Positions 13,865 through 26,370 are shown, counted from the first letter of the stretch. The stretch: DNA of 44,223 nucleotides from Pseudomonadota bacterium (GCA_027320085.1 DAHVLZ010000032.1:1-44223), one strand, 5' to 3'. Notes: generated from the letters alone by a model not told the origin. Numbers and translations: made by a program.

Positions 13865-14767
13865 GTGGACCGGCTGATGCGAACCGAGAAGTGCGAGGTC
13901 TACCTGACGGGCTCGTCGGCGCGCATGCTCTCCAAAGAGATCGCCACGCAGATGCAGGGGCGGGCCTTGTCCTGGGAGATGTTCCCGTTTTCGTTCAAGC
14001 GGCGGTTACTGGTTCAAAAGGCGTTCGGCGAATATTGGGAAACTGGAGGATTCCCGGAAGTGCTGGGCCTGCCGCGCCAATTGCGTGTCAAGACGCACCA
14101 GGAATACTTCCACGCCGTGCTTTTCCGTGACCTGATTGAACGCCATGACGTGGCCCACCCCAAAGCCGTGGCCGATCTGGCCCACTGGCTGGTGGACAAC
14201 ATCGGCGCGCCCCATTCCGTCAACCGGTTGACCCGGTATCTGCAATCACTGGGGCACAACGCCCCCAAGTCGGCGGTGTCGAATTTCCTGGCGTGGTTCG
14301 AGGATGCCTATTTCTTGTTTAGCGTGCGGATTTTCGACGCCTCCCTGGCCCGCCGCCACACCAACCCCAAGAAGGCCTACTGCGTCGATCATGCCATGAT
14401 CACGTCGGTGTCGTCGGGGATTCTGCTCAACTCGGGGCATCTCCTGGAAAACCTGGTTTACACGGCGTTGCGGCGAGTATTCCCGGAGATTTTTTACTAT
14501 AAAACGGCTGACGGTCGGGAGGTCGATTTCATCGTGCGATCAGGTTCGCGGTCCCCAATCCTGACCCAGGTCTGCGCGTCGCTCGCTGATCCGCTGACTC
14601 GCAAGCGCGAAGTGGCGGCGCTCAGCGAGTCCATGACGGAGTTGTGCGTCAAGACGGCAATCATTGTGACGCGGGCCGAAGATGAGCGGATCGCAACCAA
14701 CGCGGGGATCATCCATGTCGTTCCAATCTGGAGGTTCTTGCTGGAATTGCCGGAGTCGAAGGAATAG
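13865..14767 (+). pseudogene. 5'-truncated AAA+ ATPase/DUF4143 gene
   Basis: Begins at LTGSS with no Walker A/B; retains GGFPE, LLENLV and EVDF. Confidence 0.7.
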
Positions 14768-14771
14768 TCGC

Positions 14772-14834
14772 ATGCGTTTTCTTCTGATCAGTGATACCCA
14801 CGGGAATCCCGGCCTCATCAACGTCGTGGCCTGA
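14772..14834 (+). pseudogene. Metallophosphoesterase N-terminal remnant
   Basis: MRFLLISDTHGNPGLINVVA-stop, the first motif of calcineurin-like phosphoesterases. Confidence 0.55.
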
Positions 14835-14871
14835 TTTGCTAGGTTAGTTAGCGGATCCAAGCGTATTATTC

Positions 14872-14899
14872 TTGCAATTCTGGCTCAGTACGCCATAAT
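14872..14899 (+). promoter_or_regulatory. Sigma70-like promoter giving a probably leaderless mRNA
   Basis: TTGCAA-N16-CATAAT, ATG 7 nt downstream, no SD. Confidence 0.5.
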
Positions 14900-14906
14900 T
14901 GCTAGG

Positions 14907-16070
14907 ATGTTACCGCGCCGAAAGACCGAGCTCATTCTTGCCCGACTGGACCAGTTCCCGGCCGTGATTCTGCTCGGGCCGCGGCAGTCCGGCAAGACCA
15001 CGCTGGCCAAACAGATCAGCGATGGATGGCCGAGCGTTTATCTCGATCTCGAAGACCCGGCGGATCGGGAGAAACTGGCTGACGCTGCGCTCTACCTGTC
15101 CAGGCACGAAGACAAGCTCGTCATCCTGGATGAAGTTCAGAGGGTGCCGGAACTCTTTAAGACGCTGCGCGGCCTCATTGACGAAAGACGATGGCGAAAC
15201 AGCAAGACAGGCCGCTTCCTGCTACTGGGCTCGGCGTCGATTGATTTGCTGAGGCAATCGGGCGAATCGCTGGCGGGCCGCATTGCCTATGTCGAACTGG
15301 GACCATTCAACGTACTTGAAGCCGATGACGATGCGCGCGAGAAACTGTGGATCAGAGGTGGATTCCCGAACAGCTTCTTGGCCGAAACCGACCAGGCAAG
15401 CGCGATCTGGCGCGAAAACTTTATCCGCACCTACCTGGAACGGGACATCCCGCAGCTCGGGCCGCGCGTGCCGGCGGAAACGCTGCGCCGGTTCTGGACC
15501 ATGCTGGCCCACGTGCAGGGTGGAACGTTGAATGCGGCGCAACTCGCGCGCGGCCTCGGCGTCGATGGCAAGACCGTCGCCCGTTATCTCGATCTTCTGG
15601 TCGATCTGCTCCTCGTGCGCCGCCTGCAGCCCTTCCAGGCCAATGTCGGAAAGCGCCTCGTGAAATCACCGAAGGTCTATGTGCGCGACAGTGGCATCGT
15701 CCATGCCCTGCTCGGCCTGGATGACCGCGACGCCGTGCTGGGCCATCCGGTGGCGGGTGGAAGCTGGGAAGGTTTCGTCGTGGAGAGCCTGATGAGCGCG
15801 GCGCCCGCGCGCGTGAACGCGAGCTTCTATCGCACTTCCGCCGGCGCCGAAATTGATCTCGTGCTCGAACTGCCTGGCGGGAAGCTGTGGGCGGTGGAAA
15901 TCAAGCGGGGGCATCGACCGGCGCTCGACAAGGGATTCCACCACGCGCGGGAAGACCTGAAGCCGGCGCGGAGCTTTGTCGTGTATTCCGGTGAAGAGCG
16001 CTATCCGAAGGGTGAAGGAGTCGAGGTGATGGGCGTGCGCGAACTGGCCTCGCTCGTGGCCCGGGCATGA
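14907..16070 (+). CDS. AAA+ ATPase with C-terminal DUF4143 (PD-(D/E)xK-like) domain
   Basis: GPRQSGKT, ILDEVQ, LLGSAS, KSPKVY.RDSG and EIDL...VEIK. Confidence 0.9.
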   Translation: MLPRRKTELILARLDQFPAVILLGPRQSGKTTLAKQISDGWPSVYLDLEDPADREKLADAALYLSRHEDKLVILDEVQRVPELFKTLRGLIDERRWRNSKTGRFLLLGSASIDLLRQSGESLAGRIAYVELGPFNVLEADDDAREKLWIRGGFPNSFLAETDQASAIWRENFIRTYLERDIPQLGPRVPAETLRRFWTMLAHVQGGTLNAAQLARGLGVDGKTVARYLDLLVDLLLVRRLQPFQANVGKRLVKSPKVYVRDSGIVHALLGLDDRDAVLGHPVAGGSWEGFVVESLMSAAPARVNASFYRTSAGAEIDLVLELPGGKLWAVEIKRGHRPALDKGFHHAREDLKPARSFVVYSGEERYPKGEGVEVMGVRELASLVARA

Positions 16071-16367
16071 CAGGTGGAAAGGTGTGGGGCTGCCGGAGGA
16101 GTGGCATCAGAGGATGGCGTGATGGACGGGGCCAGGCCGTGTCGTTGATGGTCAGGACCCACTGGCACAGGCGAGACCGACTGGCTTGCCCGACTCGATG
16201 TCCGGGACCCGTGGCAACAGTTTCAAGGTTTTATCGGGATTTTCCGGTGGGATCGCCAGTTGGGAAGGCCGACTGAGGTGCGCCTGCCCTCTGCCGACTG
16301 TGTGGAACCCTCCCTATCACTGGATGAGCCTGTGCCTACCCGGCCCCTGCCGGTTCGGGGGCTTCCG

Positions 16368-17030
16368 TCAGGCCAGAAGCGAGCGGACCCGCTCCACGGC
16401 CTCGTCCGTCGTGCGGTTCGGGGAGGGGGGCACCTGCATGCCGGCCTGGACAGCCGGGCGGGAGCCGACCCGTTCGAGCCAGGCCGAAAGGGCATCCAGC
16501 CCCTCCATCCGGATGCCGGCCCACTCGTGTGAGGCCACCCAGGGGTAGGTCGCGATGTCCGCGATGGAATAGTCGCCGGCCAGGTAGGGGGAGTCCGTGA
16601 GCCGGTGGTCGAGGACCTCGTAGAGCCTCCGGGTCTCGCGCTGGTAGCGGTCGATGGCGTAGGGGATCCGTTCCGGCGCATAGCGGTAGAACACGTTGGC
16701 CTGCCCCTGCATGGGGCCGATTCCGGCCATCTGGAAAAAAAGCCACTGGAAGACCCGTGAGCGCCCGCGGGGATCGGGTGGCAGGAGACGGCCGGTTTTT
16801 TCGGCGAGGTAGGCCAGGATGGCACCCGATTCGAAGATGGCGAAGTCCCCCTCCTCCCGGTCGACCAGGGTCGGGATCCGGCCGTTCGGATTGAGCGCGA
16901 GATAGTCCGGCCTCTTCTGTTCCAGGCGGGAGAGGTCGAGCACGTGGACGGTGTAGGGGAGACCCAGCTCCTCGAGGGCGATCGAGACCTTCCGGCCATT
17001 CGGGGTGGGGGCGGTGTGGAGATCGTACAT
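16368..17030 (-). CDS. Glutathione S-transferase, YfcG/YghU-like
   Basis: TPNG, NPNGRIP, FESGAIL.YL and SIADIA. Confidence 0.9.
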
Positions 17031-17329
17031 CGAGAGGGGCTCCTTGAGGGCTGGCTTCAGGCTTGGGTCAGAGGCCTATTTTACCGATCTCGTTCACGAT
17101 CAACTGCATCCAGAAAGGTGGACCGGCTCGGATTATTTGGACACGGTTTTGCACCCCAGTCCACCTTTTGCATGACATCGGCCTGACGGGCTTCGGGGGG
17201 GTGACTTGAAACCCGGTTTCTCGAGGCGCCCATGATAACGATCCGCGAACGCCATGACGGCGGGTGCGCACGGCCCCCTTTCAGACACGATTCAACTCCC
17301 AACTCGTGTCCCGGAAAACCGGATCCGTC

Positions 17330-17656
17330 TCACTTGGCGATCCCGAGAAAGACGGCCAGGCGCCGCTCGATCTCGATCAGGGACTCGGGATCGATTTGCC
17401 CGAAAGGCCGTCCGATCTTCTCGCGCCGTACCGTCATCGCCTTGTCGATCATGACCTGCGAAGGCTTCCGCAGCCCGCTCAGCGGGCCCGGTTGCACGGT
17501 CACCCGCAACAACGGCGCCTCGACAAGCGTGCCGGACACCGGCAAAACTGTCACGGTGGCCGTATCCTCAAACGGATCAGCCTGGACGATCAGCGCCGGT
17601 CGGGGCTTGCTGAAATCTCCGGACCAGGCAATGGTGACGAAATCCCCCCGCCGCAC
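17330..17656 (-). CDS. PemK/MazF-family toxin
   Basis: RRGD.V, KPRPALIVQ and GL.KPSQVMIDK. Confidence 0.88.
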   Translation of the reverse strand: MRRGDFVTIAWSGDFSKPRPALIVQADPFEDTATVTVLPVSGTLVEAPLLRVTVQPGPLSGLRKPSQVMIDKAMTVRREKIGRPFGQIDPESLIEIERRLAVFLGIAK

Positions 17657-17661
17657 GCGCT

Positions 17662-17877
17662 TCAGTGCTCGGGATCGATCAGGGCCTCATCGAGGAAGCC
17701 GAGCAATGCGGAGTCGGCTTGGTCGGCCTTGGCGACCCGTCGCGACTGGCGGCGGCACTGCTGGGCAAAACCCTCGCGCCGGGTATCCGGCACCCGGAGT
17801 TGCACCGGACGCAGTCCCGCCCGCCACAGGGCATCACGGTGCTTTTGAACACGGGCATTGACGGACGTGTCGGTCAC
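17662..17877 (-). CDS. DUF3018 (MazE-like) antitoxin
   Basis: RVQKHRD.L..AGLRPVQ..VPDTR...F...C.RQS; GTG at 17877. Confidence 0.8.
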   Translation of the reverse strand: MTDTSVNARVQKHRDALWRAGLRPVQLRVPDTRREGFAQQCRRQSRRVAKADQADSALLGFLDEALIDPEH

Positions 17878-18174
17878 TTGGAATTCCTGGCGAGTGGCGT
17901 TACATGCAACGGTCCGGCGCTCAAATAAGAGCCTGGGGCCTCCGCTGGTTGCCGTCCGCGTCCTGTGTGGACGCTCGCTCTGCGACCCGTTCGACCGGCG
18001 CGGTGGCCAGCACAGCCCGGTTTTGATTTCCAATCCCCCTGGAACCCAAGAACAAGGCCCAGGGGCTCCGATCGGAGTCCGAAGCGAGGGGAAAAAAGGG
18101 AGGGGAGGAGAGAGGGGGTGTGTACTTCGGGGACCTCAAAACGGCAGGCGGCCATCAGGGACGTTTGGATTCGG

Positions 18175-18300
18175 GCAGGGCCGGCAGTTTGAACAGGGCC
18201 CGATCGTCGGCGCGTGAGTGTCTGGTCGAGCCCGGTGCGGACGGGTTCGGGGTCGAGCGCGCCGGCCTTGAGCCGGGCGAGCATGATGGCGCCGATGGAA
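18175..18300 (-). pseudogene. Plasmid mobilisation accessory protein (MobC/MobS-like) remnant
   Basis: IGAIMLARLKAG..D...V..GLDQTLTR, then a frameshift to ADDRALFKLP. Confidence 0.5.
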
Positions 18301-18369
18301 GGGGCACTTGCGCAAGAGCCTGTGATCAAGGGCTAAAGTCCACCCGCTCATTGAATGTGCGCTGCTTCC

Positions 18370-18556
18370 GGAGGGGGTGACCCCCGGGTGTTTTCTGGAT
18401 TCGTATACAAAGATGCGAGGAGAGGGAAAATGGGGATCCGCAAAGGCGCCGACCGGAATCGCCACGATGCTGCCCTGGCCGTCCACCACATACGTAGACC
18501 GTCGCCGCGCAGGTGGGACCGACATGAAATTTGATTTTGGACCCTTGATCTCCCAC
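18370..18556 (-). pseudogene. GFA/CENP-V family gene remnant
   Basis: KFH..PTCAATVY in one frame and VAIPVGAFADP.FP.P...VYESRKHP in another. Confidence 0.65.
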
Positions 18557-18752
18557 TCGAATGATTGAATTATCTTGGAATTATTTGTGATCGTGTGGAA
18601 TATTTCGGAGAGGGATGCGTGGATAAACCCCTGATTCGCCTGGATCGGAGCCATTGATATTCCACGGATTGGCACCGTCGCCAGCCTGCACCGTCAGTAT
18701 GCGATGTGTGATCATTTATGATATATTACGCATATTGATTTTTCGTGCCACC

Positions 18753-19553
18753 GTGAAATCACGCCTCTCCACTATCCTCGATGATGCCGAGCGGTCGGGC
18801 AAACTCATGCTCACCGATGCGCAGATCGCCGCGTCCCTCCCTGATACATCCCCGGAAGCACTGCGCCAGGCTTTGCATCGACAGCAACGACGCGGTCGCA
18901 TCATCCGTCTTGCGCGCGGCTCTGGGCAATGGGTGATCGTGCCCTTGATGTACGCGCAAAGCGGCGCGCCCCCTCCTGAGACGTGGCTGCACCGATTCCT
19001 CGCCTCCACGCTCAGGATCCCCTACTACGTCGGGTTGCTCTCTGCGGCGGAAGCGTATGGCGTTGCCCCCTATGCGCCGTCGGTCATCCAGGTCATGGTA
19101 CCGATGCAGCGCCGGCCGATGGTGGTCGGCCGCCAACGCCTGACCTTCCACACCCGCGCCCGCATATCAGGGATGCCGAGTCAGTGGCACGAAACCCCGG
19201 ACGGCCGGTATCTCGTCTCTACGCCCGAGCTCACGATGCTTGATCTTCTGCGGCGCCAGGAGCTTGCCGGCGGACCAATCCGCATTGCCGGGGTGGTCGA
19301 AGGACTCAGCGCGTACTCACATCCAGAGGGGCTCAGGGCGGCATTGGTTGCCGCTCACGACATCCCCAATGCACAGCGGCTCGGCGCGCTTCTTGCGCGA
19401 CAAGGCTCCAATCTCGCGGATACGGTGGCTGCGTTCCTCAAAGACCGGAAACTGCGACCCGTGGCCCTGGCGCCCGGGCGGCCAGGCCAGAGTCGCCAGA
19501 ATGTCCAGTTTAGAGTGCTCCTGCCCGTGCGGCTTGGGGAATCGAATACGTGA
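18753..19553 (+). CDS. abiEi: AbiEi-type (type IV TA) antitoxin
   Basis: YYVGLLSAA..YG, Q V.V and VSTPELT.LDL; followed by the AbiEii 5' end; GTG start at 18753 inferred. Confidence 0.8.
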   Translation: MKSRLSTILDDAERSGKLMLTDAQIAASLPDTSPEALRQALHRQQRRGRIIRLARGSGQWVIVPLMYAQSGAPPPETWLHRFLASTLRIPYYVGLLSAAEAYGVAPYAPSVIQVMVPMQRRPMVVGRQRLTFHTRARISGMPSQWHETPDGRYLVSTPELTMLDLLRRQELAGGPIRIAGVVEGLSAYSHPEGLRAALVAAHDIPNAQRLGALLARQGSNLADTVAAFLKDRKLRPVALAPGRPGQSRQNVQFRVLLPVRLGESNT

Positions 19554-19663
19554 TCCAGCAATCGCACCTCACCACCTGGCAGGCGCACGCGCCCTGGGAT
19601 AAGCGCAGCAAGATCGAGCAGGACTTGCGACTCTCGCGCGCCGTGGCAAGCCGTATGCAGTGA
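19550..19663 (+). pseudogene. abiEii: Truncated AbiEii nucleotidyltransferase toxin (37 aa)
   Basis: MIQQSHLTTWQAHAPW...KIEQDLRLSRAV then stop; GTGA overlap with abiEi. Confidence 0.75.
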
Positions 19664-19808
19664 TCTTGTCCTACGAAGAGGATCAAAAGCTCCAGGATCT
19701 GGAAGACGCCTGGTGGGGGAGCGCGCCAAGGCGGCACTCGGCAGTGGTCTGGTGGGGCCGGAGGAGGTCTGGCCGTATCTGCAGGGAAAGCTGGATGCGG
19801 CGTCTTGA
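19660..19808 (+). pseudogene. C-terminal half of a Phd-type antitoxin, frameshifted
   Basis: VILSYEE.QKLQDLEDAWWG, then (one G missing) ERAKAALGSGLVGPEE...; overlaps the relE start. Confidence 0.6.
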
Positions 19809-20061
19809 TCTCACACGGGATGCACTCAAGTTTCTCGATGAATTGCCGCCCAGGCAATTCAAGCAGGTCACCACGACGATACTGGGCCTGCTCCGCGAAC
19901 CCGAACCCCATGATGCCCGGCTGTTGAAGGGGTATGACTATCGTCGCGTGGACGTTGGGGAATACCGGGTGATCTACGATTTCGCGGAAGAGGAGATCCG
20001 TGTCCTCCTGATCGGGCAGCGCAACGATGATGCTGTTTATCAGGCGCTGCGTCGGAAGTAG
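19795..20061 (+). CDS. RelE/ParE-family toxin, apparently intact
   Basis: A.KFLD.LP.RQ.KQV, P.PHD..LLKG..YRRVDVGEYRVIY and IG.RNDD.VY. Confidence 0.85.
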   Translation: MRRLDLTRDALKFLDELPPRQFKQVTTTILGLLREPEPHDARLLKGYDYRRVDVGEYRVIYDFAEEEIRVLLIGQRNDDAVYQALRRK

Positions 20062-20489
20062 GGGGACGGGGAGTTTCCCGGATTCTCGGGATTGTCGAGC
20101 TTTCAGGACGACAATCGGCCCCGGACAGGTGGCACTTCGGATCGAGGGGGTGGGCTTCCATGCGGTTATGAGTGACCTGGAGCAAATGCAAAGCTCATGT
20201 GGGGGAGACCGAGACTCTCCAGGAGCGCGAGGAGAGGGTGACCGTGTCCTTGTCGAGTGGGTGGGCAAAAACGGTGCCCCCCATCCGGGCGAGCCCTGAG
20301 GACGCACCCGTCTACTGACGGGATTCGCGGCCCGTGCTGACACGGGTTCCTGGCATCCAGGTTCCGGGACCCGCTCCTGCAACGACCCGGGCTATGGCTT
20401 CAATCCCTCCGTCTTCAAAGGAGTGCCAAAGGTTTCTGAACTGAGGGATCCAAGGACGCACCCAAGCATGGCCTGTCCAAGAAGAACGA

Positions 20490-20520
20490 TCTTGCATTAT
20501 TTATTTTGCAAGAATACAAT
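20490..20520 (+). promoter_or_regulatory. Sigma70 promoter with overlapping palindromic operator for the HNH-GIY-XRE/ImmA-PIN operon
   Basis: TTGCAT(20492)-N17-TACAAT(20515); TCTTGCA-N10-TGCAAGA at 20490-20513. Confidence 0.75.
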
Positions 20521-20552
20521 GCTTGTGACTTGGATGACGTCGGGAGCTTCGC

Positions 20553-20849
20553 ATGAACTGGACCGACGAGCAGCAGGCTGCCATCTGGGCGAAGGCGAGC
20601 CCCGTCCCGAACTACGATCCGGACGCGTGGCGCAAGGACGCCTGCGGCGCTTGGATGGGCTGGTGGTTTTACGGAAACCGCAACTCACCATACGGATGGG
20701 AGGTGGACCACATCACACCTGTCGAGCATGGCGGTTCGGACGCGATTTCGAACCTTCGTCCCCTGCACTGGAAGAACAACGCCAGCAAGCAGGACGGGCG
20801 GTTGACTTGCCCCGTCCGTGCGAATAGCACCAGCAACAGCGGTATCTGA
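20553..20849 (+). CDS. Small HNH endonuclease
   Basis: RKDACGAW, GWEVDHI.P..HGGSD...NLRPLHW.NN..K. Confidence 0.88.
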   Translation: MNWTDEQQAAIWAKASPVPNYDPDAWRKDACGAWMGWWFYGNRNSPYGWEVDHITPVEHGGSDAISNLRPLHWKNNASKQDGRLTCPVRANSTSNSGI

Positions 20850-20867
20850 TTTCGAGGAGCAACTGAC

Positions 20868-21155
20868 ATGGCAAGAAGGACTGTTTCCTTCAACAAGACC
20901 GGCATCGGCAAGTTGCCGAACGACAAGCCGGTCAAATACACCATCGAGACCGGCGGCGGTAAGCCGAACTACGTCGGTGTTGCCCAGCGCGGGCGTGTAC
21001 AGGAGCGGCTCGTCGAGCATTTGCCGGGGAGCAAGGATTACGTTCCAGGCATGAAGGTGCGGATCGAGCAGATGAAAAGCATCGAAGATGCCAAGCAGGG
21101 CGAGGTGCGCTCAATCGCGCGCACCCAACCCAAGTACAACAAGCGGGGGAAGTGA
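20868..21155 (+). CDS. Stand-alone GIY-YIG nuclease-like protein
   Basis: VKY...NYVG.A...RL.EH...E......PKYN; GAGGAG RBS. Confidence 0.75.
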   Translation: MARRTVSFNKTGIGKLPNDKPVKYTIETGGGKPNYVGVAQRGRVQERLVEHLPGSKDYVPGMKVRIEQMKSIEDAKQGEVRSIARTQPKYNKRGK

Positions 21156-21162
21156 GGAACCT

Positions 21163-22278
21163 GTGAGCGACATCATCGTCCGCCGTCTGAAATACGCCCG
21201 CGAAGACAAGGGCTGGACCCAGGCCCAACTCGCGAAAAAGCTCGGCTTCAAGGATCGCCAGACACTCTCCGCCATCGAAGCGGGTCAGCGCAAGCTGACG
21301 GCCGCCGAACTGGTGCGTGCGCTCGATATCTTCAGGGTGGATCTGGATTTTTTTACCGATTCTCTGCGGTTGGTCGGCGAGGGCAGCTTCAACTGGCGCG
21401 CGAGTCGGGAGGCCAGCGCCAGCGTACTGGACCAGTTCGAGGATCGCGCCGGGCGCTGGATCGCGCTCTATCGCAAGCTGGGTGAAAAAACCGGCAAGCC
21501 TGCCAGCCCCCTGCAGAAACGGCTGGTGCTGTCGGAACAAAGCAGTTTCGAAGACGCTTGGGTTGCCGCCGAAATGCTCGCGAAGGAATGGGACCTCGGG
21601 ACAATCCCGGCGTTGAAACTTGAATCCGCGATTCACTCGCATCTCGGCGCACTGGTGCTTTACGTGGATGCACCCGTCGGCATTTCCGGCGCGGCCTGCC
21701 AATTGCCAGGGCTCAACACCATCCTGATCAATCGCAACGAAGGGGAAGGCCGTCGAAACTTCGACCTGGCGCATGAGTGCTTCCATGTGCTCACGTGGGA
21801 ACAGATGAGGCCGGAGCACCGGGAGAGCGTGAACGGGGATTACTCCGGCAAGGGCCGGCACAAGCGCATCGAACAACTCGCCGACAACTTCGCCGGGGCT
21901 TTGCTGATGCCGAAACGAACGCTCACGGCGCGCTTTCAAAGCCGCGAAGGAGAGGACCTGCATCGCTGGCTCAACAAAACCGCCACGGAATTGTGCGTGT
22001 CGGCGCAAGCCCTGAAGTGGCGACTGTTCTATCTCGGCCTGCTGTCCAAGGCCGATCTTGTAGATACCGACGACCAGAAGCTCACGGCCAACGGCCGTCC
22101 CATGCAGAAGCAGCTGAAACCGCGCCTGTTCAGCGCCGAGTTTGCGCAACGGCTGCACGCTGCACTGCTGGCGGGTGACTTGTCGGTACGCCGCGCGGGC
22201 TCGCTGTTTGGAATGACGTTTGAGGATCTGGCAGAATTTTTCGGGAGTTACGAACTGCCCGCCCCCTTTGACTTGTGA
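21163..22278 (+). CDS. XRE-family HTH fused to ImmA/IrrE (M78) metallopeptidase
   Basis: N-terminal TQAQLA...LSAIEAG; RRNFDLAHECFH (HExxH); EQLADNFAGALLMP. Confidence 0.92.
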   Translation: MSDIIVRRLKYAREDKGWTQAQLAKKLGFKDRQTLSAIEAGQRKLTAAELVRALDIFRVDLDFFTDSLRLVGEGSFNWRASREASASVLDQFEDRAGRWIALYRKLGEKTGKPASPLQKRLVLSEQSSFEDAWVAAEMLAKEWDLGTIPALKLESAIHSHLGALVLYVDAPVGISGAACQLPGLNTILINRNEGEGRRNFDLAHECFHVLTWEQMRPEHRESVNGDYSGKGRHKRIEQLADNFAGALLMPKRTLTARFQSREGEDLHRWLNKTATELCVSAQALKWRLFYLGLLSKADLVDTDDQKLTANGRPMQKQLKPRLFSAEFAQRLHAALLAGDLSVRRAGSLFGMTFEDLAEFFGSYELPAPFDL

Positions 22279-22294
22279 GCAAGGGCCAGCAGCC

Positions 22295-22792
22295 ATGGAA
22301 CGCGGACAGGTTGTACTCGTGGACACCAACATCATGATTGAGGCTGTCCGTACGCACTGCTGGAACGCGATCGCCAACCACTTCGCCGTGGAAACAGTCG
22401 AGAAGTGCAGGGAGGAAGCACGCACGGGCGGCCCGATGCGCCGAAATTACGTACCGATGGAATTGTCGGACCTGGAGTGCGTGAGAGTGGTTCACGTCGT
22501 TACCGAATCCGAGCGCGCGAACCTGGCACTGAACCTGCAGACGGCGGATGCGCTCGACGCCGGCGAACGGGATCTTTTCGCGCATGCGCTGGTCCGCAAC
22601 GATGCGTGGATCGCCAGTTGTGCCGACCGCGCTGCACTCAAGGGAGCTTTCGCGCTTGGTTGGAAGGACAGGATGGTTTCGCTCGAATCGCTCGCGCGAA
22701 CTGCGGGGATCAAGCCCCATCTCAAGGATCATTTTCTGGAACGCTGGCTGTCGAAAGAGCGGACAGCGTTCCTGCTAGAGCAGGGATTGTGA
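22295..22792 (+). CDS. PIN-domain protein
   Basis: VLVDTN..IE, C.EE, LDAGERDL and CADRAA acidic tetrad pattern. Confidence 0.75.
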   Translation: MERGQVVLVDTNIMIEAVRTHCWNAIANHFAVETVEKCREEARTGGPMRRNYVPMELSDLECVRVVHVVTESERANLALNLQTADALDAGERDLFAHALVRNDAWIASCADRAALKGAFALGWKDRMVSLESLARTAGIKPHLKDHFLERWLSKERTAFLLEQGL

Positions 22793-22964
22793 TGGATTGT
22801 TTCACCGTCATCGAAGCATGCAGCACCTGATCGCGCAGTAGCGCAGCTTCATCAAGAGCCCCTACCGGTTCGCCGATCCAAAGTTGCGCCAGCCGTTCGA
22901 ACGACACGTCGACCTGCCGGCCTGAACGTGGAGCTTCAGGCTCTCACGCGGGTGGTGATTCACT

Positions 22965-23783
22965 TCATTCCTGAACCGCCCGACCGTGACGCCCATCCGG
23001 CGGTCGTCGGGTCGCGAGCGCGAGGGACTGGAGATGGGACTCAAGTTGCGCCGGGTCCCGGGACTTCTCGATCAGGCTGGATCCCACGATCACGCCAGAG
23101 GCCCCCTGGGCCAGGGCCGCACGCACGTCCTCGGGTGAGGAGATGCCGAACCCGACGAGTCCGGGCGGTGCACCGAGGGCCCGCAGCTTTTCAAAAAGGC
23201 GGGCCTGGGGCCGGCCGGCCTGCTGTTCCGTTCCGGTGACCCCGCTCCGGCTCACGACGTAGATATAGCCGGAGGCGAGTTTTGCGATCCGTGCCAGGGC
23301 CGCCTCCGGCGCGTTGGGAGGGGCGATCAGGATCGGTGCAATGCCCTGGCGCCGGGCCGCGTCCACAAAGGGTTGGGCTTCCTCCGACGGGACATCCGGG
23401 ATGAGGACCGAATCCGCCCCGGCAGCGTGGACCCGTTCGTAGAAGGGATCCAGTCCCGGCTGGTAGACCAGGTTGGCGTAGACCAAAAGTCCGATCGGGA
23501 GCTCCGGATGGCGGGTGCGGAGCTGGCACACGAGGGCAAGTCCCGAATCGAGCCGGGCCCCGGCGGTGAGTGCCTGGTGGCTGGCCGTCTGGATCACCGG
23601 ACCGTCGGCGATGGGATCGGAAAAAGGCAGGCCCAGCTCCAGGGCATCGGCATGGGGAAGGAGCGCCTCGATCCATTCGAGCGAGCGTTCCGGAGTCGGA
23701 TAGCCCAGGATGGCAAAGGGCACGAGTGCCCCGCGGTGCTCGCGGCCCAGGCGCTCGAAGAGGGCGGAATAGCGGTCCATCAC
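22965..23783 (-). CDS. trpA: Tryptophan synthase alpha chain
   Basis: [25 protein letters not shown] and GFGIS. Confidence 0.97.
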
Positions 23784-24985
23784 GAAATCTCCTCGATCAA
23801 GGACTGCACATGGGCGAGATCCTTGTCTCCCCGACCCGAGAGGTTGACCAGGAGGCGGGCAGGCTTGGGCCCCAGACGGGCGAGCCTTTCGCAGTAGGCC
23901 AAGGCGTGGGCCGACTCGAGGGCGGGAATGATCCCCTCGTCGCGCGCGAGCCGGCGGAACGCGGCCACGGCCTCCCCGTCGGTCGCCGATTCATAGCGGA
24001 CACGCCCGGTCTCGTGGAGATGAACGTGCTCGGGCCCCACGCCCGGATAATCGAGACCGGCCGAGACGCTGTGCGACTCCAGGATCTGGCCTTCCCGATC
24101 GGTCAGGATCCGGGTTTCGGCTCCATGGAGGATGCCCGCCTGTCCACGACTGAGGGTGGCGCCATGCCGGCCGCTCTCGAGCCCCTCTCCGCCGGCCTCG
24201 ACGCCGACAAGGGCGACCTCGCGATCGGCGAGAAAGGCCCGGAAGATCCCGAGGGCGTTCGAACCGCCGCCGATGCAGGCCACGACCTCATCCGGAAGGG
24301 CGCCCCCGGTCTGTTCGAGAAACTGGGCACGGGCCTCATCCCCGATGATGCGCTGGAACTCGCCCACGAGCGTCGGGAACGGGTGCGGACCGGCGACCGT
24401 TCCCACGAGATAGTGGGTCGTCTCGTAGCTCGCGGCCCAGTCCCTGAGGGCCTCGTTCATGGCGTCCTTGAGGGTGGCGCTGCCCGCGGTGACGGCGATC
24501 ACCTCGGCACCGAAAAGTTTCATGCGGAAGACATTGGGGGCCTGGCGGGCGCAGTCGGTCGCCCCCATGTAGATGCGGACCGGAATCCGGAACAGGGCGC
24601 CGGCCAGGGCGACCGCGACGCCATGCTGACCGGCACCGGTCTCGGCGATGACCCGGGTCTTGCCCATGCGGCGGGCCAGGAGCATCTGGGCCAGGACCTG
24701 GTTGGTCTTGTGGGCGCCCCCGTGCAGGAGATCCTCGCGCTTGAGATAGATTTCGAGTCCCGAGCCGGCCAGGAAGTTGCGGCAGCGGGTGAGCGGAGTC
24801 GGCCGGCCGGCAAAATTCGAGAGAAGGTCCCTGAGTTCGGCCTGGAAGGCGGGATCGGTACGGGCCCCCTCGAAGGCCCCTTCAAGCTCGTCGAGGGCCG
24901 GAACCAGGATTTCCGGGACATAACGCCCGCCCCAGCGGCCGAAACGGCCGGGACGGGGAGCGGGTGGCGGGGTCGCCCGGGTCAT
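23780..24985 (-). CDS. trpB: Tryptophan synthase beta chain
   Basis: [21 protein letters not shown] and [11 protein letters not shown]. Confidence 0.98.
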
Positions 24986-26370
24986 GAGAGATTCCGGTTG
25001 CGGTGGGGGAGGAGCCTTAACTGATCGAAGAGCCGGGTCAGGCGCTCCCGATCCTTCCGTCCGGGCGATTCCTCGACTGCGGAGTTGACGTCGATGAGCC
25101 AGGGATCCAGTCGACGCGCGGTCTCGATGACATCCGGTCCGATGCCGCCTGCGATCACGGCCTGGGAGAGATCCGGCCAGAGGCGGGCACGCGCCGGATC
25201 AAAGGGGATCCCGGTGCCACCCATGCGGCTGCCGCATGCGCTGTCCAGGACCAGCCGGTCCGCGCCGACGGTCTCCGCCCGGACGGGGGGGGCATCCCAC
25301 GGCACGGCCTTCCAGACGGCCACGTGGGCCGGGAGCTTTTCCCTGAGGCGATCGAGTACGGCCCGGGGCTCGTTCCCGTGCAACTGGAGGGCGGAAAGTC
25401 CCAGCGTGTGGGCCCGATCGGCCATGGCCTGGGGTTCGGCGTCCTGGAAGACGCCAACCCAGGCGAGCGGGACGGCCTGGACGAGCGCCTGGGCCTGTCC
25501 GGGTGTGACGGCACGGGGGGAGCCGGCCACGAAGTTGAGTCCGCCATGGGTCGCACCGAGTTCCCAGGCGAGACGGGCATCTTCGATGCGGGTGAGCCCG
25601 CACACCTTGATCTGCCCGAGCCGGAGCCCGCGGGCTGCGAGATCGATCCGTGGCGAGCGCATGAGGGCACTTCCCACGAGGAAGCCGTCGACCGAGGGCC
25701 CAAGGTCGCGGATGTGCGCGTGGGTCTCGATCCCGGATTCGGCGATGACCGGAAGTCCTTCGGGAACGAGGGGCGCGAGACGCCGGGTGGTGTCGCGGTC
25801 GATCTCGAGCGTCCGGAGGTTGCGGTTGTTGATGCCGAGGAGATCGCATCCGAGATTGAGCGCCCGCTCGAGTTCCCGTTCATCGTGCACTTCCGTGAGC
25901 GCGTCGAGCCCGAGCTCGCGGGCGAGGGCGAGACAGTCGGTGTAGGCCGGATCGTCGAGGACCGACAGCATGAGCAGCACGGCATCGGCCCCGAGATGGC
26001 GGGCCTCGAGCACTTCGTAGGGATCGACCAGGATGTCCTTGCGCAGGAGCGGGAGGGTCGTCCGGGTCCGCCAGAAGGCGAGATCCCCGAGGCTGCCCTT
26101 GAAGAAACGCGCTTCCGTGAGGACGGAAACCGCATCGGCCCATTCATTGTAGATTCCGGCAATGGCTTCGAGGTCGGCCTCGGGACGGAGCAGGCCGGCC
26201 GAGGGCGAGGCGCGTTTGCACTCGAAGATGAAGAGGGGTCTCGTCCCCCCCAGACGCTCGCGGAGGGCGTGGCGGCCGGGGACCAGCGACCGCCGGAGCG
26301 CGGCTTCGGGAACGAGCCTTTTGCGGCCGGCGACGACCTCGCGCTTGTGGGCGATGATCGCATCAAGCAC
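24982..26370 (-). CDS. trpCF: Bifunctional IGP synthase/PRA isomerase
   Basis: [23 protein letters not shown], then KVCGLT, LQLHG and GGTG; GTG start at 26370. Confidence 0.93.

What the first reader, a model, noticed from the sequence alone, without database searches (positions are those of the whole stretch)
20490..22792. Candidate undescribed four-gene defence/stress operon: HNH + GIY-YIG + XRE-ImmA/IrrE + PIN
Seen: four co-oriented, apparently intact genes with 18, 7 and 16 nt gaps. They encode a 98-aa HNH nuclease, a 95-aa stand-alone GIY-YIG protein (Y, YxG, R, H, E and PxYN retained), an HTH-HExxH metallopeptidase and a PIN protein. The operon is intact while neighbouring TA genes are decayed. 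Established: XRE-M78 peptidase plus PIN pairs are predicted TA-like modules, and ImmA/IrrE/CapP peptidases are stress or ssDNA-triggered switches. Inference: two minimal DNases and an RNase under a peptidase switch would make a damage- or phage-triggered abortive-infection system. One option is that the small nucleases generate the DNA signal that activates the peptidase and frees the PIN toxin. I do not recognise this four-gene arrangement as a named system.
Basis: partly seen in the sequence, partly recalled or inferred. Interest (0 to 1): 0.8.

Follow-up and report, generated by a model that had tools for sequence, protein, structure and literature searches.

The report
Orphaned peptidase-PIN toxin-antitoxin-like cassette
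The four genes are real, but only the repressor-peptidase and PIN nuclease form a widely conserved pair of an already predicted kind, left here when a larger phage-defence operon decayed.

Summary
All four genes, their 18/7/16-nt gaps and their motifs are confirmed. They are not one conserved four-gene system.

- **Core pair.** The HTH-M78 peptidase (g3) sits directly upstream of a PIN-fold protein (g4) in 80 of 80 related loci across many phyla. A complex model scores 0.88 (best control 0.00) and puts the g3 tail over the PIN acidic pocket. This is the RosmerTA-like, HTH-DUF955 + PIN kind already predicted in print. g4 belongs to a PIN family that Pfam, PADLOC, NCBIfam and PHROGs do not detect.
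- **Original setting.** In the window's clade the pair normally lies between a ~1300-aa DrmMI/PglX-like methyltransferase and a ~1730-aa DruE/YprA-like helicase-nuclease. The window keeps only a frameshifted, stop-containing 5' remnant of that helicase (22792-22913).
- **GIY-YIG gene (g2).** It is a facultative companion: 9 of 80 pair-centred loci, and next to an HTH-M78 gene in 10 of 20 assessable g2-centred loci.
- **HNH gene (g1).** It joins the others only in near-identical copies of this 2.3-kb cassette. Elsewhere the counts are 0-1 of 80, 1 of 80 and 0 of 40.

Verdict: a new variant of a known kind, of moderate interest.

The parts
20490..20552 (+). AT-rich leader upstream of g1. It is the left edge of the cassette shared with other runs. 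It carries a 7-nt inverted repeat (TCTTGCA..TGCAAGA, about 20490-20514) and a TACAAT at 20515-20520, so it is a candidate promoter or operator.
   Evidence: Sequence read. Contigs of runs X5 and X9 begin to match the window at 20492 and 20490. The consensus promoter scan reported no site, so the promoter and operator role is inference.
20553..20849 (+). g1, a stand-alone 98-aa HNH nuclease-family protein.
   Evidence: Pfam HNH 3.8e-7, above cut-off. 17 PHROG HNH families match. 242 relatives of about 98 aa were found. D52-H53, N67 and N76 are invariant in 25 relatives. It is not linked to g2-g4 outside near-identical cassettes.
20868..21155 (+). g2, a minimal 95-aa GIY-YIG-fold protein.
   Evidence: Invariant Y24, Y35, G37, R43, E50, H51, E79 and N91. 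AF2 pLDDT 93.5. Foldseek best hit 1yd6 UvrC GIY-YIG, E 2e-4, TM 0.70. Relatives reach 19-21 bits on PF01541, below the 22.6 cut-off. Atlas neighbours are GIY-YIG clusters.
21163..22278 (+). g3, with an N-terminal XRE HTH, an M78 (ImmA/IrrE-type) HExxH peptidase domain and a conserved C-terminal HTH-like tail. It is RmrA-like, the predicted repressor and antitoxin.
   Evidence: Pfam HTH_3 and Peptidase_M78. PADLOC RmrA 2.1e-22 over residues 7-296, capP 1.7e-15. H204, E205, H208, E237, G338, S341 and R343 are invariant. It lies upstream of a g4 homologue in 80 of 80 loci. Residues 44-68 and 335-355 contact g4 in the complex model.
22295..22792 (+). g4, a 165-aa PIN-fold protein of a family without a Pfam, PADLOC, NCBIfam or PHROG model. 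It is the predicted toxin or effector nuclease.
   Evidence: 190 relatives, all unnamed. LVDTN(8-12), E16, E41, G90-E91 and D111 are invariant. AF2 pLDDT 93.1. Foldseek VapC4/PIN, probability 1.0. VIA-align Z 10.4 to 2mdt (rmsd 2.7, 114 aligned) and 10.2 to VapC4 5h4g (rmsd 4.0, 130 aligned).
22792..22913 (+). Decayed 5' remnant of a DruE/YprA-like helicase-nuclease gene. Its ATG overlaps the g4 stop (TGATG). A frameshift follows after about 8 codons, and there is an in-frame TAG. The remnant is cut off before trpA (22965-23783, minus strand).
   Evidence: tblastn with the L003 helicase gives 61% identity over 33 aa, E 7e-6. Translations were compared with L003 and L001. A search of the window's own genome finds only this piece, with 1 TAG inside.

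Best explanation
The functional core is the g3-g4 pair, a RosmerTA-like toxin-antitoxin and regulator module.

- g3 is a fused XRE repressor and M78 Zn-peptidase.
- Through its conserved C-terminal tail and its N-terminal HTH, g3 holds the g4 PIN nuclease with the acidic active-site pocket covered. It probably also represses the operon.
- A stress or infection signal would trigger M78-dependent cleavage of g3, as in ImmA, IrrE and CapP. That would free the PIN nuclease and derepress downstream genes.

In the window's clade the pair normally sits inside a methyltransferase + YprA/DruE-like helicase-nuclease defence operon (ARMADA/Druantia/DISARM-like), translationally coupled to the helicase gene. 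In this genome the two large genes are gone. Only a broken 5' stub of the helicase remains. The pair survived, plausibly because losing it is toxic (addiction).

g2, the mini GIY-YIG, is a facultative third gene of such modules. g1, the HNH, is a recent, lineage-specific addition to the 2.3-kb cassette and has no conserved link to the others.

Shown: gene content, folds, conserved residues, adjacency statistics, the helicase remnant and a supportive complex model.
Inferred: toxicity, the polarity of toxin and antitoxin, the trigger, self-cleavage and addiction.
For: **Pair adjacency.** A g3 homologue lies directly upstream of g4 in 80 of 80 g4-centred loci from many phyla. In 3 of them it is in two pieces, and several are cut by a contig end.

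**Complex model.** ipSAE 0.88 in three runs, best of 3 controls 0.00. The mark was reached by 58 of 80 solved complexes and 2 of 110 mismatched pairs. The runs agree in at least 94% of contacts and the partner pLDDT is at least 89. The interface comprises g3 residues 44-68, 335-355 and 369-371. On g4 it comprises residues 11-12, 16, 71-91 and 110-114, that is the invariant D10-N12, E16, G90/E91 and D111 region.

**Family assignments.** g3 matches PADLOC RmrA at 2.1e-22 and Pfam HTH_3 and Peptidase_M78. g4 has a PIN fold.

**Flanking genes in relatives.** 20 of 80 loci have a long DruE-like gene starting 3-24 nt after the g4 match. 4 have only a remnant, 4 have DrmA(+DrmB), 5 have an approximately 790-aa DEAD helicase, and 2 more are related cases. 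PADLOC gives DruE1 8.9e-143, DrmMI 3.9e-101, DrmA 3.5e-256 and DrmB 2.9e-82.

**Remnant in the window.**. The methyltransferase was not found in the window's own genome, which is 96% complete, with this query.

**Tree.** The window groups (SH-aLRT 99) with L001 (remnant only) and L003 (full operon). This sits inside a 23-row clade with 14 full and 4 remnant cases.

**Literature, passages read.** RmrA antitoxins pair with diverse toxins and associate with PIN-like domains (PMC10440598). HTH-DUF955 + PIN-like modules are predicted three-component TA systems (PMC5499597). [quoted passage not shown]
Against: - No experiment bears on toxicity, cleavage or defence.
- No RmrT model matches g4.
- g3 shows no detectable GAF domain, and only about 75 residues follow the peptidase domain. 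The ssDNA groove described for CapP and IrrE (PMC13228613) therefore cannot simply be transferred.
- In PD-lambda-2 the Xre-peptidase fusion itself was toxic and the HigB-like partner rescued it (PMC9519451). The polarity here could be reversed.
- The four-gene block recurs with the same edges (20490/20492 to 22794) at about 92-94% nucleotide identity on contigs of runs X5 and X9. Proteins of one named bacterium carry accessions spaced by three. g1 therefore does travel with the rest in this lineage.
- About 42 of 80 loci show no helicase neighbour with my queries, so the pair is not obligately tied to those systems.
- My own unpaired alignments were used for the complex model, so its calibration holds only roughly.
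Confidence: 0.62

Rival explanations
1. First reader's model. All four genes form one abortive-infection system. HNH and GIY-YIG make the DNA signal that activates the peptidase and frees the PIN toxin.
For: The spacing is tight, with ribosome-binding sites before each gene. The same 2.3-kb block, with the same edges, is found on contigs of runs X5 and X9 at about 92-94% identity. Homologues of g1, g2 and g4 share contig sets of 67520, 11360 and 14552 bases. One 5019-base contig length is shared by a 68% g1 relative and a 71% g2 relative. A distant HNH lies upstream of g2 in L156.
Against: - A g1 homologue is near the pair in 0 of 80 loci, apart from one weak 33-aa hit in L016.
- It is near g2 in 1 weak case of 80.
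- No g2, g3 or g4 homologue lies near g1 in 0 of 40 viral-contig loci.
- g2 is present in only 9 of 80 pair loci.
- The g1 family is broad and also occurs on phage contigs.
Confidence: 0.08
2. A three-gene module, mini GIY-YIG + HTH-M78 + PIN, is the functional unit where g2 is present. g2 would be a regulated DNase effector or a signal generator under a cleavable repressor.
For: - g2 lies next to an HTH-M78 gene in 23 of 80 g2-centred loci, and in 10 of 20 loci with at least 1500 nt on both sides.
- This occurs in two architectures. One is co-directional, upstream of g3-type genes. The other is divergent, 112-129 nt from a different RmrA family (PADLOC 9.6e-55) that has a Pfam-PIN/DUF3368 partner.
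- A LexA-like S24 repressor sits 3 nt before g2 in L139.
Against: - 71 of 80 pair loci lack g2.
- Half of the assessable g2 loci have other neighbours: Tsp45I RM, a kinase, DUF6119, PDC-M50.
- Genes such as ThsB-TIR, PDC-S52 or a 256-aa protein can lie between g2 and g3.
- g2 could simply be one of several cargo genes in a variable slot.
Confidence: 0.2
3. The pair is mainly a transcriptional controller (CapH-CapP-fusion-like) of the adjacent helicase-nuclease system. The PIN protein is a co-regulator and not a toxin. In the window it is a functionless leftover.
For: The pair sits between the methyltransferase and helicase genes, with the g4 stop abutting the helicase start in 20 of 80 loci. 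DISARM-linked CapH-CapP fusions are reported. There are capP and capH hits in PADLOC.
Against: - All four ORFs are intact while the helicase stub has decayed. The same has happened independently in L001, L005, L012 and L026, which argues for selection on the pair itself.
- The acidic PIN residues are invariant.
- The pair occurs without such neighbours in about 42 of 80 loci.
- The model places g3 over the PIN active site, as antitoxins do.
Confidence: 0.15
4. Reversed polarity. The Xre-peptidase fusion g3 is the toxic component and the PIN-fold protein neutralises it.
For: In PD-lambda-2 the Xre-peptidase fusion alone was toxic and the upstream HigB-like protein rescued it (PMC9519451, passage).
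Against: g4 keeps a complete, invariant acidic set typical of active PIN nucleases. The gene order, with the HTH protein first and the nuclease second, is the common antitoxin-toxin order (PMC10440598, passage).
Confidence: 0.06

Closest known systems
RosmerTA (RmrT/RmrA) anti-phage toxin-antitoxin systems
   Same: It is a two-gene module whose antitoxin is an HTH + M78/ImmA Zn-peptidase. g3 matches 15 PADLOC RmrA models, the best at 2.1e-22. RmrA is known to pair with diverse toxins, including PIN-like ones (PMC10440598).
   Different: g4 matches no PADLOC model, including any RmrT model. Neither toxicity nor defence has been tested. In the window's clade the pair is embedded in a larger operon.
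HTH-DUF955 (COG2856) + PIN-like 'three-component' TA modules of Matelska et al. 2017
   Same: A PIN-like gene lies downstream of a fused HTH-DUF955 gene that retains HExxH. That paper proposes the same self-cleavage and derepression idea (PMC5499597).
   Different: I could not determine which of their clusters (COG2405, DUF4411, PIN_14, PIN_20, PIN_26) g4 belongs to, because the supplements are closed. Pfam PIN/DUF3368 models do not detect g4 (1 of 27 relatives at E 0.075). Atlas structural neighbours include DUF3368 clusters at TM 0.67.
CapH/CapP, IrrE/DdrO and ImmR/ImmA damage-responsive repressor-peptidase switches, including the DISARM-linked CapH-CapP fusion with a vapC-like gene
   Same: It combines an HTH repressor with an M78 peptidase. 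Relatives L064, L074, L078 and L080 sit beside drmMI-, drmA- and drmB-like genes, as in the Nocardia example of 10.1101/2022.04.27.489752.
   Different: No GAF domain is detectable. The pair is co-directional and internal to the operon, whereas the CapH/CapP-like genes lie upstream on the opposite strand. The ssDNA-sensing groove (PMC13228613) cannot be assumed here.
ARMADA, Druantia and DISARM (YprA-family helicase defence systems)
   Same: Flanking genes in relatives are a PglX/DrmMI-like methyltransferase and a YprA-type helicase with an MZB/DUF1998 domain and a C-terminal Vsr/DUF559 nuclease. This is the architecture described for ARMADA YprA homologues (10.1101/2025.09.15.676423).
   Different: The window has only a broken 5' stub of the helicase and no methyltransferase. 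A BrxHII-like ArmA was not found in the short upstream pieces tested. The inner HTH-M78/PIN pair is not mentioned in the passages I read.
PD-lambda-2 (HigB-like + Xre-peptidase fusion + third gene)
   Same: It is a defence module built around an Xre-peptidase fusion with an extra component required for defence (PMC9519451).
   Different: The partner there is HigB-like, not PIN. The fusion itself was the toxic part.

Membership tests
RosmerTA | The antitoxin RmrA has an HTH and an M78 Zn-peptidase with HExxH. | tested here: met
   PADLOC RmrA 2.1e-22 over residues 7-296. Pfam HTH_3 and Peptidase_M78. H204, E205 and H208 are invariant.
RosmerTA | The partner is recognised as an RmrT toxin. | tested here: not met
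   g4 has no PADLOC hit at E up to 0.1. RmrT families are diverse, so this lowers membership but not likeness.
RosmerTA | Toxicity that RmrA neutralises, and anti-phage activity. | not testable with these tools
   There is only a supportive complex model: 0.88 against a best control of 0.00.
PIN domain-like nucleases (VapC group) | PIN alpha/beta/alpha fold. | tested here: met
   Foldseek 1ye5 and 5h4g, probability 1.0, TM 0.59-0.67. VIA-align Z 11.1-8.6 over the 50 rows listed, for example 2mdt Z 10.4, rmsd 2.7, 114 aligned.
PIN domain-like nucleases (VapC group) | Conserved acidic active-site residues. | tested here: met
   D10, E16, E41, E91 and D111 are invariant and D88 is nearly invariant in 27 relatives. 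Their mapping onto the catalytic positions is inferred, not superposed.
PIN domain-like nucleases (VapC group) | Match to a Pfam PIN-clan model. | tested here: not met
   The window protein has no hit. 1 of 27 relatives reaches E 0.075 on PF01850.
HTH-DUF955 + PIN-like TA (Matelska 2017) | The PIN-like gene is co-oriented next to a fused HTH-DUF955 gene. | tested here: met
   80 of 80 loci.
HTH-DUF955 + PIN-like TA (Matelska 2017) | g4 belongs to one of the named clusters (COG2405, DUF4411, PIN_14, PIN_20, PIN_26). | tested here: inconclusive
   hhalign against one DUF3368-type cousin (L122) gives probability 0.5%. Atlas structural neighbours include DUF3368 at TM 0.67. The cluster lists are in closed supplements.
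CapH/CapP-type regulator | A peptidase-HTH-GAF architecture with an ssDNA groove. | tested here: not met
   No GAF hit at E up to 0.1. About 75 residues follow the peptidase domain, against a GAF of about 105 residues in CapP (PMC13228613). No model of g3 alone was made.
CapH/CapP-type regulator | Located upstream of the regulated operon and on the opposite strand. | tested here: not met
   The pair is co-directional and lies between the methyltransferase and the helicase in relatives.
GIY-YIG nuclease superfamily (g2) | GIY-YIG fold and the Y..Y-x-G..R..E..N residues. | tested here: met
   1yd6 at E 2e-4, TM 0.70. Invariant residues.
GIY-YIG nuclease superfamily (g2) | Pfam PF01541 score above the gathering cut-off. 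| tested here: not met
   The window protein has no hit at E up to 10. Three relatives score 19.4-21.0 bits against a cut-off of 22.6.
HNH nucleases (g1) | Pfam HNH above cut-off and the H-N-(H/N) residues. | tested here: met
   30.6 bits against 21.4. D52-H53, N67 and N76 are invariant. Position 72 is H or Q.
ARMADA/Druantia/DISARM-like system (in the window) | An intact YprA-family helicase and a methyltransferase. | tested here: not met
   Only a remnant of about 120 nt, with a frameshift and a TAG. The methyltransferase was not found in the window's own 96%-complete genome with the L003 query.

The most novel reading that the evidence does not exclude
A mini GIY-YIG nuclease, a self-cleaving HTH-M78 repressor and a PIN nuclease of an undescribed family form a plug-in sensor and back-up effector cassette. 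The cassette sits between the methyltransferase and the YprA helicase-nuclease of ARMADA/Druantia/DISARM-like systems, coupling their expression to a damage or infection signal. It outlives them by addiction when the big genes decay.
Probability: 0.2. Interest if true: 0.6.

Novelty: new variant of a known kind. Interest (0 to 1): 0.4.

Why it matters
- **Regulation of large defence systems.** If the pair really gates YprA-helicase systems, it would show how large DNA-targeting defences are kept silent and then switched on.
- **Explaining orphan pairs.** It would also explain why small 'orphan' peptidase-PIN pairs litter degraded defence islands.
- **A missing PIN family.** The g4 family has 190 relatives with no Pfam, PADLOC, NCBIfam or PHROG model for the window protein. 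It is a concrete gap in PIN and RosmerTA annotation.
- **A new association.** I did not find the recurrent GIY-YIG association in the papers searched.
- **A caution for scanning.** A tidy four-gene operon can be a recent mosaic around a conserved two-gene core.

Tried and rejected
- **PDB sequence search.** g2 and g4 gave nothing significant; best E values were 0.12 and 0.73.
- **Profile comparison.** hhalign of the g4 family against a DUF3368/PIN cousin gave probability 0.5%.
- **Promoters and terminators.** The consensus scan of 20000-23100 found 0 promoter-like sites. It found 2 terminator-like sites on the minus strand, no more than in shuffles.
- **Cassette ends.** No repeat pair spans the two cassette edges (20490/22794); only short repeats that look like chance matches were listed. 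No tRNA lies in 14000-26000.
- **Viral contigs.** There is 1 locus for g2 and 1 for g4, so these two genes are not phage-borne. g1 has 40 loci.
- **Same-phylum genomes.** g2 occurs in 2 of 401 and g1 in 2 of 401, both counts including the window's own genome. This was too rare to give context.
- **Expression.** No RNA holder was listed, so there is no evidence on expression.
- **Laid contigs.** The contigs leave 19755-20207 and parts beyond 22794 uncovered in the other runs. That is no finding.
- **Earlier notes.** Nothing was stored for this place.
- **Papers.** PMC9670203 is not held, so I read its preprint.
- **ArmA test.** The short C-terminal pieces upstream of the methyltransferase gave no PADLOC hit.
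- **Count corrected.** My note of 11 of 80 loci with g2 was a miscount. One search shows 9: 8 full-length and 1 partial.
Full report
**The observation**

The + strand of 20553-22792 holds four intact, co-oriented ORFs.
- g1: 20553-20849, 98 aa.
- g2: 20868-21155, 95 aa.
- g3: 21163 (GTG) to 22278, 371 aa.
- g4: 22295-22792, 165 aa.

The gaps are 18, 7 and 16 nt. Purine-rich ribosome-binding stretches precede each start. The block has about 60% G+C, against about 68-69% in the trp genes next to it.

It lies in an island between a GST gene and trpA. The island also carries MazF/MazE-like, AbiEi-like and ParE-like genes.

**What each gene is**

- **g1** is an HNH protein: Pfam E 3.8e-7, above cut-off, and 17 PHROG HNH families. 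It belongs to a broad family of stand-alone proteins of about 98 aa, with 242 relatives. D52-H53, N67 and N76 are invariant.
- **g2** gives no hit in Pfam, PADLOC or NCBIfam. It has 255 tight relatives with invariant Y24, Y35-x-G37, R43, E50-H51, E79 and N91. A pLDDT-93.5 model superposes on the UvrC GIY-YIG domain: 1yd6, E 2e-4, TM 0.70.
- **g3** combines HTH_3 (5.2e-14) and Peptidase_M78 (6.2e-11). It matches PADLOC RmrA (2.1e-22 over residues 7-296) and capP (1.7e-15). The HExxH motif and a C-terminal G338-x-x-S341-x-R343 motif are invariant in 26 relatives.
- **g4** has no hit in any of the four HMM libraries, nor by sequence in the PDB. Its 190 relatives are all unnamed. They keep LVDTN, E16, E41, G90-E91 and D111. 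The pLDDT-93.1 model is a PIN fold. Foldseek gives VapC4/PH0500 at probability 1.0. VIA-align gives Z 11.1 to 8.6 over the 50 rows listed, for example 2mdt at Z 10.4, rmsd 2.7 Å, 114 aligned.

**Is the four-gene order conserved?**

I centred searches on three of the genes.

*g4-centred.* 126 relatives were found in one-genome-per-species contigs, and the best 80 were kept.
- A g3 homologue lies directly upstream in 80 of 80. In L017, L046 and L065 it is in two pieces, and several are cut by contig ends.
- g2 is present in 9 of 80: 8 full-length and 1 partial.
- g1 is present in none, apart from one weak 33-aa HNH hit 1.6 kb away in L016.

*g2-centred.* 522 relatives were found in metagenome contigs, and the best 80 were kept.
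- An HTH-M78 gene is adjacent in 23 of 80.
- Among loci with at least 1500 nt on both sides it is 10 of 20. Among loci with at least 1500 nt on either side it is 22 of 52.
- Two architectures occur. In one, g2 lies co-directionally upstream of g3-type genes. In the other, g2 lies divergently, 112-129 nt from a different RmrA family (PADLOC 9.6e-55) whose partner hits Pfam PIN and DUF3368.
- An HNH lies near g2 in one weak case, L156.

*g1-centred.* There are 40 loci on viral contigs. None has g2, g3 or g4 within 3 kb.

g2 and g4 are almost absent from viral contigs, with 1 locus each. In 401 genomes of the window's phylum, g1 and g2 are each found in 2, counting the window's own genome.

*Near-identical copies.* The whole block does recur at close range.
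- Contigs of runs X5 and X9 match the window from 20492/20490 to 22794 at about 92-94% identity, then run on unlike it.
- Homologues of g1 (88%), of g2 (in the window protein's own 90%-identity cluster) and of g4 (85%) share contig sets of 67520, 11360 and 14552 bases.
- In one named bacterium they carry accessions spaced by three.

So g3-g4 is the conserved unit. g2 is a facultative but non-random companion. g1 belongs only to a young 2.3-kb cassette.

**What surrounds the pair elsewhere**

Downstream of the g4 match:
- In 20 of 80 loci a long DruE-like gene starts 3-24 nt after it.
- 4 loci (L001, L005, L012, L026) keep only a 95-175-aa remnant.
- 4 loci have DrmA, with DrmB.
- 5 loci have a DEAD helicase of about 790 aa.
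- 2 further loci are related cases.
- 3 more have such helicases nearby.

The downstream protein of L003 (1727 aa) has DEAD, Helicase_C, MZB/DUF1998 and Vsr/DUF559 domains. It scores DruE1 at 8.9e-143.

Upstream lies a methyltransferase of about 1300 aa of the Eco57I/DrmMI/type IIG kind (DrmMI 3.9e-101). It was detected in 21 of 80 loci.

Between the methyltransferase and g3 there is a variable slot. It can hold g2, ThsB-like TIR and PDC-M50 genes, a PDC-S52/DUF6988 gene, or unknown genes.

This layout resembles the PglX-like methylase plus Vsr-fused YprA helicase described for ARMADA (10.1101/2025.09.15.676423, passages). It also recalls the DISARM operon with a CapH-CapP fusion and a vapC-like gene noted by Lau et al. 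(10.1101/2022.04.27.489752, passages).

**The window is a remnant**

Directly after g4, an ATG overlaps the stop codon (TGATG at 22790-22794).
- The next 12 codons, and then 22815-22913 in another frame, align with the N-terminus of the DruE-like proteins. tblastn gives 61% over 33 aa, E 7e-6, with an in-frame TAG.
- A search of the window's own genome finds only this stub.
- The methyltransferase is not found in that 96%-complete genome with the L003 query.

In a quick ML tree of concatenated g3+g4 (75 rows), the window groups at SH-aLRT 99 with L001 (remnant) and L003 (full operon). This sits inside a 23-row clade with 14 full and 4 remnant cases.

The clade mixes several phyla, which points to horizontal transfer. 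The careful search was not finished, so this is the quick tree.

**How it most likely works**

A complex model of g3 with g4 scores 0.88 in each of three runs. The best of three controls is 0.00.
- That mark was reached by 58 of 80 solved complexes and by 2 of 110 mismatched pairs.
- Contacts agree in at least 94% between runs, and the partner pLDDT is at least 89.
- My own alignments were used, so the counts hold only roughly.

In the model, the g3 tail (335-355, 369-371) and its HTH (44-68) contact g4 residues 11-12, 16, 71-91 and 110-114. These are the invariant acidic pocket. This supports binding but does not show it.

I therefore read g3 as repressor and antitoxin and g4 as nuclease toxin or effector. 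M78-dependent cleavage of g3 would be the switch, as proposed for HTH-DUF955 + PIN modules (PMC5499597) and for RmrA (PMC10440598).

Intact pairs persist beside decayed helicase stubs in at least five lineages. That fits an addictive module.

Three things remain unknown.
- **The trigger.** g3 lacks a detectable GAF domain, so the CapP/IrrE ssDNA groove (PMC13228613) cannot be assumed.
- **The polarity.** In PD-lambda-2 the Xre-peptidase fusion was the toxic part (PMC9519451).
- **The role of g2.**

**Novelty**

The core is a known, predicted kind. The following points appear new:
- a PIN family that the four HMM libraries tested here do not detect;
- the conserved position of the pair between methyltransferase and YprA helicase, in both fused (DruE-like) and split (DrmA+DrmB) forms;
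- repeated survival of the pair after operon decay;
- the GIY-YIG association.

I did not find the GIY-YIG association in full-text searches for GIY-YIG together with RosmerTA, CapP, ImmA or DUF955 (listings, plus passages). Closed supplements of PMC5499597 and of the YprA preprint may bear on these points.

Noticed in passing
window 17330-18033 (minus strand): The MazF/PemK-like toxin (108 aa, Pfam profile positions 1-109 of 109) and the MazE-like antitoxin (profile 2-63 of 65) look intact.
   Followed up: partly
window 18654-20061: An AbiEi-like antitoxin gene has no AbiEii partner. It is followed by a ParE-like toxin ORF whose first 49 codons are not part of the domain. These are possible orphaned halves of two TA systems.
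   Followed up: no
L039 3179-4515, also L007, L037, L083, L084, L090: A ThsB-like TIR gene together with a PDC-M50A-like gene occupies the slot between the mini GIY-YIG gene and the HTH-M78 gene. This makes a multi-cargo insert inside the methyltransferase-helicase operon.
   Followed up: partly
L139 4237-4998, L125, L106: A LexA-like protein (S24 peptidase + LexA DNA-binding domain) lies next to the mini GIY-YIG gene, 3 nt before it in L139. This is a second kind of self-cleaving repressor beside g2.
   Followed up: no
L001 7113-8171 (minus strand): In the closest genome-collection relative, an IS-type integrase (rve) lies 0.6 kb beyond the truncated helicase stub. An IS-mediated deletion may have removed the helicase there.
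   Followed up: no
L077 6455-7552: A Dsr1/ThsA-like SIR2 protein starts 28 nt inside the end of the g4 homologue. The pair therefore also couples to non-helicase effectors.
   Followed up: no
L065 2738-5950: The g3 homologue is split by about 2.1 kb of inserted DNA (residues 3-165 and 162-363 lie apart), while the g4 homologue downstream still aligns over residues 6-154 of 165.
   Followed up: no
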